Source: Eubacteriales bacterium | Lineage (GTDB): Bacteria; Bacillota; Clostridia; Oscillospirales; CAG-272 | Direction of reading: 5' to 3' | Assembly (NCBI GenBank): GCA_045596505.1 | Contig: JAZOCO010000043.1 | Location: 1 to 49,081 of the forward strand | Length of the DNA: 49,081 nt | Part shown: piece by piece, positions 1,285 to 8,330 of the stretch | How the letters are laid out: each line of letters starts with the position of its first letter | Position numbering within the stretch: the first letter of the stretch is position 1 | The notes under the pieces: model-generated | The model's database searches: none | What the model saw: the letters and a program-made list of their open reading frames with translations, nothing else | Told to the model about the DNA's origin: nothing | Position numbers and translations under genes: made by a program

Positions 1285-1432
1285 TTTCGTTTCCGTTTTT
1301 GGAAAACTTTTTTTGAAACTATAAAAAACACTTTCAAGCAAAAAAGACTTTTAACAGCCCTCAAACCCTTGTAAAATAAAGAAAAACCCCGAAGCCCTTG
1401 CAAAACAAGGACTTTCGGGATTTTTCTGTTTT

Positions 1433-1460
1433 TGGTGGATCCGAGGAGAGTCTGAACTCC
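1433..1460 (-). repeat. Duplicated tmRNA 3' end (att-like core)
   Basis: TGGTGGATCCGAGGAGAGTC is identical to 1636-1655; the match continues (GAACTCC) after a 1-nt insertion. Confidence 0.9.
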
Positions 1461-1635: not shown

Positions 1636-2004
1636 TGGTGGATCCGAGGAGAGTCGAACTCCTGTCCGAAAACCCGTTCACAGGACTTTCTTCGTGGGTA
1701 GTCTTTGGTTTAAAATTCCCTTACAGCGTCGAGCAAAGACACCCTACGCCGCTTGGTAGCCCTTTTTTGCATGATCGGTACAAGTGCGAACTTCCGATGC
1801 ATGTTCACCACTGCATGACGCTCCCATCGGGGTCGTGGTCCTCCCCGCGGAAACGGGCGGCCTTAAAGCCGCGGCACTGCCAAATTAGGCAGCCAGTGCG
1901 ACGTTTTCGTCAGCGTTTAATTTTAAGGTTGAGCCTTTTTCGTGATTGCTCGGCACGCCACGCTTATCCTGCTTCAAGATCCCCGTCGAAACCTTTACGG
2001 ACCC
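1636..2004 (-). ncRNA. ssrA: tmRNA; tag peptide (A)ADENVALAA at 1914-1885
   Basis: 5' GGGTCCGTAAAGGTTTCGACGGGG; 3' GGAGTTCGACTCTCCTCGGATCCACCA; acceptor stem with G3.U pair; tag ORF ending ALAA-stop; smpB nearby. Confidence 0.97.
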
Positions 2005-2018
2005 AGATACACCATACT

Positions 2019-2047
2019 ATTTTACAGCGCTTTTATAAATTTGTCAA
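2019..2047 (-). promoter_or_regulatory. ssrA promoter
   Basis: TTGACA-17-TAAAAT just upstream of the mature 5' end. Confidence 0.75.
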
Positions 2048-2050
2048 GTG

Positions 2051-2084
2051 CCACCCTCTCCCACCTGCGGGTGGGAGAGGGTGG
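2051..2084 (-). terminator. Hairpin after the large repeat-protein gene
   Basis: CCACCCTCTCCCACC-tgcg-GGTGGGAGAGGGTGG. Confidence 0.7.
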
Positions 2085-2090
2085 ATAATT

Positions 2091-5000
2091 TTAGGATTGG
2101 GACGGTATCGTACCGTTGATAAGATAATTCAAAAAGTCAATGATCGTATATTTACTTGCCCAATCAGCACCAAGTGCCGTAGCAAATATCGCTTGCTTTT
2201 CCACACTTATATTAAGAAGCTCTGCATCCATCAGGCTCTTGATCTTGCAATTCATCATAGCCGTATCAAGCTCGGTTACCTTGGTTGTGGGATCAATAGC
2301 CTTCAAAATCCCTTCGGGCTCCGGATAAAGCTGCGCTACGGTCATATTTTCAATATCCCCAACGATATGGTCAAGATCCGAGCCCGCAAGCACGGCAAGA
2401 ACACCTGTTACCTTGTTATTGCCCGAATCGTACCAGCCGTCTGCTTTTTTCGTAAAATCAAGCATTGTGCCAATGGAGATGGACTTTAGCTTATTCTCGA
2501 CTCCGCCGATCTCGGTATCTGCCAATGCGCCAAGGAGCCCTGTGACGGGCTTTTCTTCATCCGCGACGGTATTCCCTGCGGCATCGGTCTTTGTTTTATA
2601 CCAAACACCCTCGACGCATTTATATCCCATACTGTCCCCCAGCTTTGCCGTTTGCAGTGCCCCCGCGATCTTATCGGCATTGTCAAGGTCGGAAACCAGC
2701 ATGTCGGCAAACACAAGATCAAGACCCGTGAGCGGCTTGCCGTTTGCATCCTCCCAAGCGCCCTCATTGAAGGAATGTCCAAGCAGCCTGCCAAGCTTCA
2801 TGCTGTTAAGCTCCTCGCGTGCGTGGGTGAGGTGGATATTGGCAAGCGAGGCGGTGATGCCCGTGGGCTTCTTGCTCAGCGCCTGATCGGTAAACCATTC
2901 CCCTGTTTCCTCGTTGCGATAAAAGCCGAAGGCGTATCCCAGCGGCATTTCATCGATCTCGTGCTCAACGGCATTGATCTTAAGTCCCATCAGGTGTGCC
3001 ATCACACCGGAGGCTGCCACGTTATTCTTATTGACCCACTGTCCGTCAACGTACTTATAATTAAGGACCACCGAAAGCTCGACCTCTCCTAACTTTTCGC
3101 TGACTGCCGCTGAGTCCTTCAGCGCACCGACCGTAAGATCTGCCATAGTCCCCATAATGCCCGTGGCGGGCACGTCATCCTGATACCACGTGTCGGCAGC
3201 GCCGTCGCCATTGGTGTCCTTTTTCATATAACCTATGGCATCACCAAGCAGGATCGCGTCGATGGTGGCAGTGTTGATATCCTTTAGCGGATTGGTTGCC
3301 AAAGCAGCCAAAATACCCGTTAACTTCACGTCATTGGTGCTATCACCGTCATCACTGTATTCGGAGTACCAAACGCCGTCAACCAACGTATAGCCCATCG
3401 CATCCGCCAGCGCCAGCTCGCGTATTTTAGCGGTGAGCGTGTCGGCATTTGAAAACTCGCCTATCGTAATATCCGCCAGGGTTGCAAGCATACCCGTGAC
3501 CCGTTTATTATTCTCGTCATACCATTTATCGGGCGTGCCGTCCGCGTCGGTATCCTTTTCCGTGTAGCCCAGCACCTCGCCTACTGCGATGGCATTGATG
3601 GTGCTTTCATTCAGCTCCTTCACGCGATTGCCTGCAAGGACCCCGAGCACGCCTTTTACGCGCACGTTTTCATCGCTGTTTGCAGCAACAAAGGTGGAAT
3701 ACCATACGCCCTCGTGCTCGGTATATTCGAGAACCTCGCCAAGGCGCATATCCTTTACGGTATCGCTAAAATCTGCGCGCCCCTCTAAGACGTCGGAAAG
3801 CGGCAGGTTGGCGATCTCAAGCATAGTTCCCGTAACCTCAACAGGTGGCGTTTCTCCTTTGGTAAACTCATATTTGTCGTAGGAAGCTTCGTCGCTTGGA
3901 TCTTTGCTCTCGTAAATATCGCCACGCGTATAGCCCATTGCATCGCCCATGCGAAGCTCACCGAGCGCACTTGAAAGGCTAAACTGACCGCTCATCACGT
4001 CGGAAAGCAGCACGTTAGCGAGAGCGTTTTGCACAGCGCCCACGTAAACAAGCGTGCTCTCGTCACCCTCAGTGACCGTGCGATACCAGCGCAGATCCTC
4101 GCCGCGCGTGTAGCCCTGCACCTCACCCAACGTGAGCGCACCGAGCGCTTCGGTCATATCCAACTGACCGTTCAAAACGGTAGAAAGCGAAATATCGGCA
4201 ATGGCGGAAAGCACGGGGGAAACCTCAGTTTCGGTGTTGTCCGTGCCCTTCTTCATCCACTTATGACCCACAAGGGTATCTCCCTCAAGCACCTCGCGGT
4301 AGGTATAGCCCTGGAGATCGCCTATATACAGCGAGCCAAGTGTGGCATTCAGGTCAAGGTGACCGTTCAGCACGTCACTTACTGCCATATTGGCGATCTT
4401 TGCCTGCATTTTACTGACCTTGGCACCGTCCTTCATCCAACAGTAGCCAACGACAATATCCTCGCCACCCTCAGGATTGGGCTCGGTGATAGCATCGCCG
4501 CGAGAGTAGCCGTTTTGAAGATCGCCAAAATACATGCCGTCAAAGGTTTGATCGAGGGAAAGCGTTCTGTTTATCACGTCAAGCAAAGAGATCTTTGCCA
4601 GCGCCGCATTCATTGACGACGCGGGAACATCATCGGTATCGTCACCATTGTCGGTATAGGCGGTGTACCACGTGTCACCAACCTTTATATACCCAAGCGC
4701 ATCACCAAGATACACACCCGTGCAAAGCGCGGGAAGGCTGAAGGTATAGCGACCCGTATTGGCATCGGGCAGGATCACGTCCTTTACAAGACGCCCCTCA
4801 CACATTTTTTCAAGAAGCGCGCCCGTCATAAAGCCCGAAAGTATGGGGCGAAGCTCCTGCTCTCCAAGATCGGTTGCCAAAACGCCAAGCAGATCGCCGT
4901 TTTGCGTGGTGGCACTAAGGATCCTGCCAAGGTCAAGCTCTGCCATCGCCTCCTGCATAGTCAGCTGGCTTGCGTTAACAGGAACGACATTGCCCTCCTC

Positions 5001-6035
5001 GTCAAAGGTAACGCCTGTGAAATAGCCAAGCTTTACGCCTGCGAACAGCTCACCGTACTGCCCGTTTGTCAAAAGTGCAAGCGGACGCTCGGAAAGCGTT
5101 TCAACAACACGCGGGCTGAGCATTGCGGGGGGCAAAAATGAAAGCAGATACCCAAACTTGAGATTTTGGGCGATCACCGCACCTCCCTCGCTTGAAACAA
5201 GCGTGGTGATGGGAACGGAAAAGAGATCCGTTGGCAAGACTGCCAGTGTTTCTGCGGGCAGTGCAATACCGTAATGGTCGATCAGGGTCTGCAGGGTATG
5301 CTCTCCGAGATCTGCGCGCACAGCGTTAAGATCGGCGATCAGCTCAAGTAAGGACGTGCTTGTAAGATCAATGTCGCCGTTTTGCGTCAAATACTTATCA
5401 GCATCGGTCGCGATGCCGAATTTTTGCAGCTCGTCGATGGTAAGCCCGCTTACAACATGATAAACTGCACCGATCACGGAGCCGTAGGCGATCGCCATGC
5501 CGAGGACAAGCGTTAAGGTAAAGCGCAGCAGTGCACCCACCACACGGTAAATATAATGCTTTCTGCGTGGGCGACGGTTTTTAAGCTTTTCCTTAAGCTT
5601 TTCGTCGCGCTCCGCTTGCTTTTTCAGCTTTTCCGCTTTCTTTTTTTGACGCGCTTGCCTTTTTTCCTCACGCTTTGCCTCGGATGCCGCCGCTTCGGCC
5701 TTTTTTTTCTCAGCCCTTTCGCGTGCAGCTGCTTCCCTGTCAGCTTCCCTGTCAGCTTCCTTTTCAGCTACTTGTTCCACTGTTGGGGCTTCTTCCTTTG
5801 GCATCTCTGCCGCCTCGACAGGCTCAGCGGCGCTCTCCTGTGCGGGGGCAACATTACTCACCTCGACGGGTGGAGTAACGCTCTCCTCAACAGAGGTAGC
5901 CTCGCTCTCCTTAGCGAGGGCAGCTTCGCTCTCCTTAGCGGTTATCTCGTGCTCATTCTGCGATAAGGGAGTATGCGCCTCTTGGGAGTTGTTTTCAACA
6001 TTATCTTGATTTTTGTTTGCATTTTCGTCCATCAC
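2091..6035 (-). CDS. Large membrane-anchored repeat protein of unknown function (1314 aa)
   Basis: GGAGGAG RBS; own promoter TTGCTT-17-TATAAT (6127-6099); charged low-complexity N-terminus, one hydrophobic segment, ~14 LG(D/E)xxGY...W(Y)...TGhhxxLA repeats. Confidence 0.9.
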   Translation of the reverse strand: MMDENANKNQDNVENNSQEAHTPLSQNEHEITAKESEAALAKESEATSVEESVTPPVEVSNVAPAQESAAEPVEAAEMPKEEAPTVEQVAEKEADREADREAAARERAEKKKAEAAASEAKREEKRQARQKKKAEKLKKQAERDEKLKEKLKNRRPRRKHYIYRVVGALLRFTLTLVLGMAIAYGSVIGAVYHVVSGLTIDELQKFGIATDADKYLTQNGDIDLTSTSLLELIADLNAVRADLGEHTLQTLIDHYGIALPAETLAVLPTDLFSVPITTLVSSEGGAVIAQNLKFGYLLSFLPPAMLSPRVVETLSERPLALLTNGQYGELFAGVKLGYFTGVTFDEEGNVVPVNASQLTMQEAMAELDLGRILSATTQNGDLLGVLATDLGEQELRPILSGFMTGALLEKMCEGRLVKDVILPDANTGRYTFSLPALCTGVYLGDALGYIKVGDTWYTAYTDNGDDTDDVPASSMNAALAKISLLDVINRTLSLDQTFDGMYFGDLQNGYSRGDAITEPNPEGGEDIVVGYCWMKDGAKVSKMQAKIANMAVSDVLNGHLDLNATLGSLYIGDLQGYTYREVLEGDTLVGHKWMKKGTDNTETEVSPVLSAIADISLSTVLNGQLDMTEALGALTLGEVQGYTRGEDLRWYRTVTEGDESTLVYVGAVQNALANVLLSDVMSGQFSLSSALGELRMGDAMGYTRGDIYESKDPSDEASYDKYEFTKGETPPVEVTGTMLEIANLPLSDVLEGRADFSDTVKDMRLGEVLEYTEHEGVWYSTFVAANSDENVRVKGVLGVLAGNRVKELNESTINAIAVGEVLGYTEKDTDADGTPDKWYDENNKRVTGMLATLADITIGEFSNADTLTAKIRELALADAMGYTLVDGVWYSEYSDDGDSTNDVKLTGILAALATNPLKDINTATIDAILLGDAIGYMKKDTNGDGAADTWYQDDVPATGIMGTMADLTVGALKDSAAVSEKLGEVELSVVLNYKYVDGQWVNKNNVAASGVMAHLMGLKINAVEHEIDEMPLGYAFGFYRNEETGEWFTDQALSKKPTGITASLANIHLTHAREELNSMKLGRLLGHSFNEGAWEDANGKPLTGLDLVFADMLVSDLDNADKIAGALQTAKLGDSMGYKCVEGVWYKTKTDAAGNTVADEEKPVTGLLGALADTEIGGVENKLKSISIGTMLDFTKKADGWYDSGNNKVTGVLAVLAGSDLDHIVGDIENMTVAQLYPEPEGILKAIDPTTKVTELDTAMMNCKIKSLMDAELLNISVEKQAIFATALGADWASKYTIIDFLNYLINGTIPSQS

Positions 6036-6168
6036 AGATCTCCTCCAGTATGTGTCAGCACTATAAAATCAAAATCATCGTACAAAGCTTCCTATTTTAT
6101 TATAGCACACGGCTACCGTAAAAGCAACCGTTTCGCGTACAAAAAGTGAATTTCCTTTCAAGTAAAAT

Positions 6169-6648
6169 TCAATATTCTCGATTGCCGCCCTTGAAGGCAC
6201 GCTCCATATCACGCTTTGCCGCGTTTTTCGCCATATCCTCACGCTTATCGTAAAGCTTTTTACCTCGGCACAGCCCCAGCTCCATCTTCACGCGCGAGCC
6301 TGAAAAATAAAGTGACAGGGGTATGACGGAATAGCCCTTCTCCTGTGCCTTTCCCGAAAGACGCAGGATCTCACGCTTGTGCATCAGTAGCTTTTTGGGG
6401 CGTAGCGGATCGCGATTGAATATATTGCCCTTTTCGTAGGGGCTTATGTGCATACCAAGCGCAAAGATCTCACCGTTTTTAAAGGTACAGTAGGAATCCT
6501 TTAAATTGACCGCACCTGCACGCAAGCTTTTGACCTCGGTGCCAAACAGCTCGATGCCCGCCTCAAATTTTTCATCCACGAAATAATCGTGCCAAGCTTT
6601 TTTATTCTGCGCGATATTGCGCGTTGCTTTTTTATCCTTTTCTGCCAT
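6169..6648 (-). CDS. smpB: SsrA-binding protein SmpB
   Basis: [35 protein letters not shown] and GKKLYDKRE motifs; start moved to ATG 6648 after a GGAGA RBS. Confidence 0.97.
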
Positions 6649-6689
6649 AATTTTCTCCATACTGAAAGTATATACAAAAGAGCCACCGT

Positions 6690-7040
6690 TTAATCCTTGC
6701 CGCACGACGAGCACGCACGCAGCTTGCCAGCCGCATGTGCCTCATCGACCGTGCCCGATATAACACCCTCTTTTTCGCTGATGTAGCGACATGCCTCGCT
6801 AAGGTGGTATACCGACCCTCCGCTTAGCCAAAAAACGATACCGTTGTGGGGTGTTTCATCTTCAGGCAGCGTGTCATCACCGCCCTTTTCATCCGAATTT
6901 TGCGCCTCAAGCCGGGCTCGTTGCGCTGCGACCTCTTCTGCTGTAAGCAGCTTGCCCGCATCAAAGCGCGCCGTATTGCCACAAGCGGCAAGAAAAAGCG
7001 TGAGCAATAAAAACAATACTGCAATGGATCTCTTACGCAT
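6690..7040 (-). CDS. Lipoprotein with C-terminal His/Cys metal-binding domain
   Basis: Lipobox LAAC; YH-x4-C ... CxxC pattern. Confidence 0.75.
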
Positions 7041-7927
7041 TACGATTCCTCAAGAAGACGCTCAAGAAGCCCCATGCGTGAGGAGGCAAACTCATAAGCA
7101 CGCTTATAGTCATCTCCTTGCCGACAGCACTGCTCCATATCTCCAAAGACCTCATAAAGGAGCACCCCCACGGGCAATGCATCGCTGGAAAGCAACAATT
7201 CAAACGCCTCCATTGCTTCCTTCAAGCACCCCTTTCGCATTAGGGACAGCGCGTGCAGCCGCGCACCCCAAACACTTTCACCATTACGGGCAAGATATGC
7301 GTCGACCTCGCCCTCCCTGCCCCCGTCAAGGGCATCCAAGGCAAGCATATAAGCACAAAAATCATCTCCTACGGACTTCGCCATCTCCACCTCGTTTTCC
7401 TCAAGCAGATCCGAAACAAGGGTTGGCGAAAGTGTGCTAAGATACCGAAAGTAAACAGCCGCACGGTTTCGGATCCACGCCGTGTTGTAAACAGTATCGT
7501 TTGACGAAGCAACGGCACGATCAAAGCCCGCTGCCGCGGCACGAAGTCTGCCGCAGTCAAACGCATCCTTTGCGATATAGTATTCACATTCCGCACGGAT
7601 GAGGGCGATCTCGTCATCATAATCATCACCGAAATTTGCGTTAAGCACGGCAATGCAGCCTGTAAAATCCCCGCCCGAAAGTGCACGACGCACGTTTGGC
7701 ATAGCAACCATCTTTCGGTATGAAAGCGTTTCCTCCTCGCGAGAGAGCAAATACCCCACGGGAACGTTCAGGCGCTCGGCAATATAGCAAGCCGTTGGCA
7801 CGGACGGCAACGCCGTTCCTTTTTCGATGGCACACAGCATATTGCGCGTGATTTGATCTCCTGCAAGATCTGCCTGCGTCATCATTTTCGAGAGTCGCAG
7901 CGCGCGTATCCTTTCTCCGACATTCAT
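7040..7927 (-). CDS. XRE-family HTH regulator with helical/TPR-like C-terminus
   Basis: GERIRALRLSKMMTQADLAG...IEKG HTH; AAGGAG RBS before ATG 7927; promoter TTGACA-18-TATAAT (7990-7961). Confidence 0.85.
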   Translation of the reverse strand: MNVGERIRALRLSKMMTQADLAGDQITRNMLCAIEKGTALPSVPTACYIAERLNVPVGYLLSREEETLSYRKMVAMPNVRRALSGGDFTGCIAVLNANFGDDYDDEIALIRAECEYYIAKDAFDCGRLRAAAAGFDRAVASSNDTVYNTAWIRNRAAVYFRYLSTLSPTLVSDLLEENEVEMAKSVGDDFCAYMLALDALDGGREGEVDAYLARNGESVWGARLHALSLMRKGCLKEAMEAFELLLSSDALPVGVLLYEVFGDMEQCCRQGDDYKRAYEFASSRMGLLERLLEES

Positions 7928-8330
7928 AAAATTCACTCCTTAGTGTAAATGGCATTTAACATTATAGCACGCGCGCGGCGAACGTGTCAAGAACAATCCG
8001 TCGAAAAACTAAAAATCTAAAAATAGATCATTGCTGAGATTACTATTTTGTTACTATCGTATTATCAACGCACAAAAATTGACCCAAACAGACAAAAAGA
8101 AAAATCCCATAAACCCAAGGGAAACCTTGAATTTATGAGATTGATCTTTGTGCTTGAATTATCTTTCGGAGCGCCGTGAGGCGTTAAGAAAACATGCCTG
8201 CGGCATATTTTTAGCCCGAAAGACGAAGCCTTAGCGGTTTTGGATGCCTCGTTTACATGGCGGGACAAGAAAATGGCACCCACCGAAAACGATGGATGCC
8301 ATTTGATAACACTTTGTGGGTGCTGTTTTC

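What the first reader, a model, noticed from the sequence alone, without database searches (positions are those of the whole stretch)
2091..6035. 1314-aa membrane-anchored protein built from an unrecognised ~45-75 aa repeat, between smpB and ssrA
Seen: ~160 aa of acidic-then-basic low-complexity sequence, one TM, then 14 clear units starting LGDALGY, FGDLQNGY, IGDLQGY, LGEVQGY, MGDAMGY, LGEVLEY, VGEVLGY, LADAMGY, LGDAIGY, LSVVLNY, LGYAFGF, LGRLLGH, LGDSMGY, IGTMLDF. Nearly all are followed by a variable-length loop with W(Y) and a TGhhxxLA helix. Units 6-7 resemble 8-9 (higher-order duplication). Some loops carry DxDxDG-like motifs (DTDADG, DTNGDG). The gene has its own promoter and terminator. 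Inference: an extracellular, possibly Ca-binding solenoid with variable display loops (envelope scaffold or adhesin). I recognise no named family.
Basis: partly seen in the sequence, partly recalled or inferred. Interest (0 to 1): 0.7.

Follow-up and report, generated by a model that had tools for sequence, protein, structure and literature searches.

The report
Unrecognised membrane-anchored helical solenoid family
This real 1,314-residue gene of an uncultured gut Clostridia bacterium encodes a membrane-anchored protein with 14 copies of a repeat that matches no catalogued family; it is predicted to fold into an unfamiliar helical rod and likely serves as a structural stalk in the cell envelope of small-genome gut bacteria, most of which appear unable to make fatty acids.

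The parts
2091..6035 (-). Gene for the 1,314-aa repeat protein (GTG start; ATG alternative at 6032)
   Evidence: single copy in G000
5553..6035 (-). Residues 1-161: acidic-then-basic low-complexity tail, predicted cytoplasmic; poorly conserved and missing from most distant members
   Evidence: 6-30% identity in 10 of 11 homologs; 68% in the closest
5445..5552 (-). Residues 162-197: long helix holding the single membrane segment, with conserved glycines; predicted N-in/C-out anchor
4734..5444 (-). Residues 198-434: membrane-proximal helical region of mostly hairpin-less bridge-helix motifs; the best conserved extracellular part in most close homologs
   Evidence: (pLDDT 88-98)
2346..4733 (-). 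Residues 435-1230: 14 repeat units (short helix - GY beta-hairpin with Trp - TG helix - short helices)
3102..3767 (-). Units 6-7 and 8-9: two-unit duplication
3528..3554 (-). Dx[DN]xDG loop with later Asp in the unit 7 hairpin (residues 828-836), candidate Ca site
3192..3218 (-). Dx[DN]xDG loop with later Asp in the unit 9 hairpin (residues 940-948), candidate Ca site
2094..2345 (-). Residues 1231-1314: C-terminal helical cap; no second membrane anchor
6099..6127 (-). Sigma-A-type promoter candidate (weak -35, 17-nt spacer, perfect extended -10)
   Evidence: sequence
6040..6046 (-). Ribosome-binding site
   Evidence: sequence
2051..2084 (.). 15-bp GC-rich hairpin abutting the ssrA -35; no U-tract in the gene's direction
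2019..2047 (-). ssrA promoter candidate (11 of 12 consensus matches)
1636..2004 (-). ssrA (tmRNA), neighbour only
6169..6714 (-). smpB, neighbour only

Best explanation
The gene encodes a single-pass membrane protein whose acidic outer part is predicted to fold into a stacked helical solenoid rod, which likely works as a structural stalk in the cell envelope of small-genome gut Clostridia. Shown: one N-terminal hydrophobic helix, no C-terminal anchor, 14 repeats, and repeat number and inserts that vary across relatives. Predicted: each unit has short helices joined by single beta-bridges and packs on the next unit; a beta-hairpin projects from each unit with its Trp folded back on the unit's own Gly. 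Inferred: the conserved membrane-proximal end docks at the membrane (in one family possibly beside a CvpA-like protein encoded directly upstream), the rod crosses the peptidoglycan, its length is tuned by adding or deleting units, and the hairpins or larger inserts form the variable exposed surface, some probably stiffened by calcium.
For: Topology: 174 of 177 proteins are more basic before than after the anchor; a C-terminal membrane-like segment in 1 of 187. Ectodomain net charge -8 per 100 residues, below all but 0.3% of 596 host ORFs. Models: residues 162-570 pLDDT 94.4, pTM 0.75; residues 191-1314 pLDDT 74, pTM 0.31, i.e. locally ordered, globally uncertain. Covariation on 2,032 units: within-unit G10-W23, L9-V43, Y15-V31, L13-M35; next-unit L41-A3' (z 11), A37-L7', Y15-G10'; i to i+2 at most z 2.3. 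Unit number 10-25 in close homologs; open frames up to 10,224 aa. Hairpins are less conserved than the helical core in 11 of 11 homologs. Housekeeping-like spread: 60 of 61 genomes of family f27, 78 of 101 of f79; cvpA-like gene 1-91 nt upstream in 30 of 30 f27 loci. Three of three hosts tested have Mur ligases. EHEC CvpA is tied to bile-salt and envelope stress (10.1101/2020.09.25.314492, abstract).
Against: No experiment or expression data. 'Structural stalk' is the least specific reading and does not by itself explain the tilt towards genomes lacking fatty-acid synthesis or the lipid-kinase neighbour in f79. In the host genus the gene was found in only 9 of 19 genomes and in no other genus among 186 genomes of the order, so it is dispensable there. 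The host's own CvpA-like gene is on another contig. Coordinates of the models were not available, so rod shape, rise per unit and cavities were not measured.
Confidence: 0.45

Rival explanations
1. The solenoid is a lipid-scavenging bridge: a hydrophobic groove along the stacked helices would carry fatty acids or phospholipids from the gut environment or a neighbouring cell across the wall to the membrane, working like AsmA-type or eukaryotic bridge proteins or Mycoplasma P116 but with an unrelated helical fold.
For: Host lacks FabF and FabZ at 99.9% completeness yet has PlsY and three DegV-like genes. In a class-wide draw 7 of 8 carriers lack FabF, against 119 of 400 genomes overall. f27: FabZ in 1 of 61. 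f79: carriers are 65 of 78 FabZ-negative but 13 of 23 FabZ-positive genomes. A DAGK/YegS-family kinase gene lies upstream in 11 of 16 f79 loci, with acyltransferases in one and DegV in another. Hairpin-free regions are 33-40% I/L/V/F/M against a host mean of 29% and amphipathic in three giants. Conserved membrane-proximal end plus variable repeat number is the layout of bridge proteins (recalled).
Against: 9 of 18 FabF-negative genomes of the host genus have no detectable copy; 96 of 98 FabZ-negative genomes of the order have none; f79 genus g238 has neither (0/8, 0/8) and g234 has FabZ in 8/8 with the gene in 5/8. Only three or four lineages carry it, so the association is confounded with small genomes. 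The query's own repeat region has ordinary hydrophobicity (27%) and no excess helical moment. The kinase neighbour is seen in one family only. No groove was shown.
Confidence: 0.22
2. It is an adhesin or contact fibre: the rod holds hairpins or its tip away from the cell to bind plant fibre, mucus or other bacteria, on which these auxotrophs depend.
For: Variable hairpins and tip; extreme lengths up to 10,224 aa; large inserts differ by lineage; Asp loops enriched 126 versus 37 in shuffles; patchy in the host genus.
Against: No known binding domain in 56 aligned members or 22 long members. Single copy in the host, fixed neighbourhood and near-universal presence in f27 are unlike typical accessory adhesins (general knowledge). 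The hairpin Trp covaries with its own helix rather than forming an inter-hairpin pocket.
Confidence: 0.17
3. It is a sporulation or germination envelope protein of these lineages.
For: Host has Spo0A; in f27 and f79 the gene lies near yyaC (DUF1256) and origin-proximal genes such as dnaA, ssb and rpsF (several of these gene names read from the sequences by recall).
Against: Upstream regions carry sigma-A-type sites or adjoin smpB; found in only 8 of 400 Clostridia genomes.
Confidence: 0.05
4. The repeats face the cytoplasm as an EzrA-like scaffold, or act with SmpB/tmRNA.
For: N-terminal anchor plus helical repeats; position between smpB and ssrA in one subclade.
Against: Positive-inside asymmetry in 174 of 177; strongly acidic, Asp-loop-bearing repeats; smpB-ssrA context absent from all f27, f79 and f57 loci inspected and from 4 close loci.
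Confidence: 0.04

Closest known systems
Gram-positive repeat stalk proteins (S. aureus Ebh/SasG, streptococcal Rib, recalled; Apilactobacillus Giant1-5, PMC12863079, passages)
   Same: Long extracellular tandem-repeat rod, variable repeat number, giant members in small genomes.
   Different: Anchored by an N-terminal membrane helix with no C-terminal anchor; no recognised tip domain; no Pfam match to their repeats; near-core gene in two families.
Choline/cell-wall-binding repeats (PF01473; consensus recalled)
   Same: The hairpin superficially resembles the aromatic hairpin of these repeats.
   Different: Period 45-69 aa with about 30 helical residues between hairpins; no Pfam hit in 56 members; Trp couples to a Gly of its own unit.
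Dx[DN]xDG calcium loops (PMC3123361, passages)
   Same: Two loops fit the motif and have a later acidic residue.
   Different: They sit in isolated hairpins on a helical solenoid, not in an EF-hand or propeller blade, and most distant members lack them.
Bridge-like lipid transfer proteins (AsmA/TamB/YhdP, VPS13; recalled) and Mycoplasma P116 (PMC10023570, passages)
   Same: Membrane-tethered, conserved proximal end, modular length; hosts that must import lipid, as for P116.
   Different: No extended beta-sheet groove in either model; no fold match listed; lipid binding not shown.
CvpA / Colicin V production protein (PF02674)
   Same: A CvpA-like gene is the immediate co-oriented upstream neighbour in 30 of 30 f27 loci.
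   Different: The protein itself has no CvpA domain, and the linkage is absent in the host genome.

Membership tests
Any characterised Pfam/NCBIfam/PHROG repeat family | Profile match to the repeat | tested here: not met
   Query: 0 Pfam families at E<=1, 0 PHROGs, one weak below-cutoff NCBIfam hit; no family hit more than 3 of 56 members in Pfam or 2 of 56 in NCBIfam
Choline/cell-wall-binding repeats (PF01473) | About 20-aa hairpin repeats in direct tandem | tested here: not met
   Period 45-69 aa with helical spacers; no hit in 56 members
Choline/cell-wall-binding repeats (PF01473) | Aromatic pocket between adjacent hairpins | tested here: inconclusive
   Strongest Trp coupling is to G10 of the same unit; coordinates unavailable
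Dx[DN]xDG calcium loop | Motif plus later acidic ligand | tested here: met
   Residues 828 and 940; 23 of 26 close homologs; 126 versus 37 shuffled family-wide
Dx[DN]xDG calcium loop | Calcium actually bound | not testable with these tools
   Needs ITC or a structure
Bridge-like lipid transfer proteins (AsmA-like/RBG) | N-terminal membrane anchor with variable number of modules | tested here: met
Bridge-like lipid transfer proteins (AsmA-like/RBG) | Repeating beta-groove (taco) fold | tested here: not met
   Secondary structure of both models is helices, isolated bridges and two-strand hairpins, with no extended sheet
Bridge-like lipid transfer proteins / P116 | Hydrophobic groove or cavity holding lipid | not testable with these tools
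   Model coordinates not provided; composition is suggestive only
Mycoplasma P116 | P116 fold | tested here: inconclusive
   Not listed in fold searches; absence from a list does not exclude it
Sortase- or C-terminally anchored stalk adhesins (SasG, Rib, Ebh) | C-terminal wall or membrane anchor | tested here: not met
   C-terminal hydrophobic segment in 1 of 187 proteins
Sortase- or C-terminally anchored stalk adhesins (SasG, Rib, Ebh) | Tandem repeats with length variation | tested here: met
EzrA-type cytoplasmic helical repeats | Repeats on the cytoplasmic side | tested here: not met
   Positive-inside asymmetry in 174 of 177; an inference from sequence
Known alpha or alpha/beta solenoids (HEAT, ARM, TPR, LRR, TALE) | Structural superposition over several repeats | tested here: inconclusive

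The most novel reading that the evidence does not exclude
A new solenoid fold forms an alpha-helical bridge that carries host or dietary lipids across the peptidoglycan into the membrane of fatty-acid-auxotrophic gut Clostridia: the first bridge-like lipid importer in wall-bearing, single-membrane bacteria, scalable from 500 to over 10,000 residues.
Probability: 0.22. Interest if true: 0.9.

Novelty: new variant of a known kind. Interest (0 to 1): 0.62.

Why it matters
The family is a near-core envelope gene of whole families of uncultured gut Clostridia, some of which spend up to 30 kb of a roughly 2-Mb genome on it, yet it has no annotation. The repeat gives a confident model with no counterpart found among 48,161 solved chains, so it is a good structural target. 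Uncultured gut bacteria often lack fatty-acid pathways (PMC6784871, passages) and how they obtain lipid across a cell wall is open; this protein offers a concrete candidate that can be tested by purifying the ectodomain. If it is only a stalk, it is still a new, length-tunable scaffold.

Tried and rejected
No fold match: Foldseek PDB for both models, viral library, VIA-align wide (in one search most rows covered only residues 1-140 of the model, so the rest was barely tested). AlphaFold DB was not available, so 'new fold' is not proven. PDB sequence search: one hit at E 0.95. ESM Atlas: no usable hit for the query or a 608-aa relative. Pfam hits on long repetitive members were scattered and inconsistent. 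Complex prediction of f27 CvpA with the protein's N-terminal 215 residues: no answer, score 0.00, partner fold uncertain; not evidence either way. No RNA holder listed. PF01473 genome search rang in no control, so uninformative. Functional link to trans-translation rejected: both smpB and ssrA flank the gene in 4 loci and 3, one flank or a partial ssrA in 5 loci cut by contig ends, a different context in 4 close loci and in all f27, f79 and f57 loci; one search annotated 10 of the 15 loci, of which L060 and L061 were not informative. Lipoprotein reading rejected: the mid-helix Cys is in 38% of 62 sequences and is followed by further hydrophobic residues. The hairpin at 2051-2084 is not a genome-wide repeat (1 copy). 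Tree of 109 N-terminal regions: 16 of 17 rows labelled as host-genus or close form one clade (0.98), one falls elsewhere; deep nodes unresolved and midpoint-rooted, so no donor is claimed. Genome searches scored few candidates per genome and may miss divergent members; the f57 hit is weak (E 8e-5). Eight literature searches (listings and abstract starts) and passages of two giant-protein papers showed no description of this family; supplements were not read, and bioRxiv supplements are closed.

Full report
Observation. The ORF lies on the minus strand at 2091-6035 and encodes 1,314 aa, between smpB and tmRNA. Leave-one-out profiles score each unit at 22-57 bits against at most 8 for shuffles. 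Units 6-7 and 8-9 are the best of 66 two-unit comparisons. The gene is single-copy in a 1.58-Mb, 99.9% complete genome. Contigs from other gut metagenomes carry it beside smpB at about 90% identity, and 30 of 39 displayed substitutions in the gene are at third positions (40 of 1,047 rows shown). A perfect extended -10 promoter and a ribosome-binding site precede it; the downstream hairpin has no U-tract in the gene's direction.

Family. A word-based search gave 34 proteins and the exhaustive search 283 clusters at 50% identity, of which 150 were listed. Named members are all hypothetical proteins of Clostridia or Ruminococcaceae MAGs; record titles of close relatives include sheep colon, goat caecum and roe deer caecum. 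Most distant members start directly with the membrane helix; the 160-aa tail is typical of the host's clade. Close homologs have 10-25 units. Other members replace hairpins by large beta-rich inserts, Cys/His knuckles or thousands of residues of plain amphipathic helices, giving open frames up to 10,224 aa. No Pfam, NCBIfam or PHROG family matches consistently, nor any PDB sequence.

Distribution and context. In a class-wide draw 8 of 400 genomes carried it, all 1.1-1.9 Mb, from four families. It was found in 60 of 61 f27 genomes, 78 of 101 f79 genomes, 9 of 19 of the host genus and no other genus among 186 genomes of the host order. An earlier unchecked note calls the lineage of the 10,220-aa giant Borkfalkiaceae; I did not verify family names. 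The smpB-ssrA position is confined to a subclade of close relatives. In f27 a cvpA-like gene lies 1-91 nt upstream in 30 of 30 loci. In f79 the gene precedes rpsF-ssb or ssb in most loci, and a DAGK/YegS kinase gene lies upstream in 11 of 16. Earlier notes describe CvpA domains fused to other acidic helical rods in gut bacteria; I did not test homology to those. A complex prediction with CvpA gave no answer.

Lipid metabolism. The host lacks FabF and FabZ but keeps PlsY and DegV-like genes. Seven of 8 class-level carriers lack FabF against 119 of 400 overall; f27 has FabZ in 1 of 61; in f79 carriers are 83% of FabZ-negative and 57% of FabZ-positive genomes. Against this, half of the FabF-negative host-genus genomes and 96 of 98 FabZ-negative genomes of the order have no detectable copy, 14 FabZ-positive genomes have one (13 in f79, 1 in f27), kin are not independent, and the query's repeat region is not unusually hydrophobic.

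Mechanism. The most likely reading is an outward-facing, length-tunable solenoid stalk that is part of the envelope, with variable hairpins on its surface and optional calcium loops (0.45). The lipid-bridge reading (0.22) explains the auxotroph bias, the kinase neighbour and the hydrophobic giants, but no groove could be examined. An adhesin (0.17), a sporulation protein (0.05) and a cytoplasmic scaffold (0.04) are weaker. Anatomy and distribution are shown; fold is predicted; topology and function are inferred.

Novelty. As a kind, a membrane-anchored repeat rod is known. The repeat, its predicted fold and the family were not found in any library or in eight literature searches. Papers seen: PMC12863079, 10.1101/2023.11.21.568195, PMC6784871, PMC10023570 and PMC3123361 as passages; 10.1101/2020.09.25.314492 as abstract and outline; no supplements. 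Comparisons with SasG, Rib, Ebh, EzrA, AsmA-type proteins and the choline-binding consensus are recalled. Verdict: real, an undescribed family with a probably undescribed fold, function open; interest 0.62.

Noticed in passing
window 1431-1460 and 1634-1662: A 22-bp exact repeat of the ssrA 3' end lies about 200 bp downstream of ssrA, next to low-GC DNA (37-41% over 1-1500): likely an attachment-site scar of an element integrated at ssrA.
   Followed up: partly
G000:C5:27994-29475; L092, L093: Host-genus CvpA-like proteins are about 510 aa, with a long acidic helical-looking tail; no significant match to this repeat family.
   Followed up: partly
L078-L079 (G478:C21): A 10,220-aa member made mostly of acidic, hydrophobic helical repeats between the family's N- and C-terminal ends.
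   Followed up: partly
L090 (G505:C26): A DAGK/YegS kinase, an acyltransferase and a glycosyltransferase-acyltransferase fusion lie in a row upstream of a 2,103-aa member.
   Followed up: partly
P0034, P0167: Some members carry Cys/His knuckles in place of plain hairpins.
   Followed up: no
window 6690-7936: A small lipoprotein-like ORF and an HTH regulator with a helical tail are conserved upstream of smpB in most close relatives.
   Followed up: no
L049, L052, L053 and window 2051-2084: GC-rich hairpins of different sequence sit immediately before the ssrA -35 box, without a U-tract.
   Followed up: partly
L077 (G291:C27): The apparent split of this FabF-positive carrier's gene coincides with a run of N and duplicated flanks, so it is probably an assembly gap.
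   Followed up: partly
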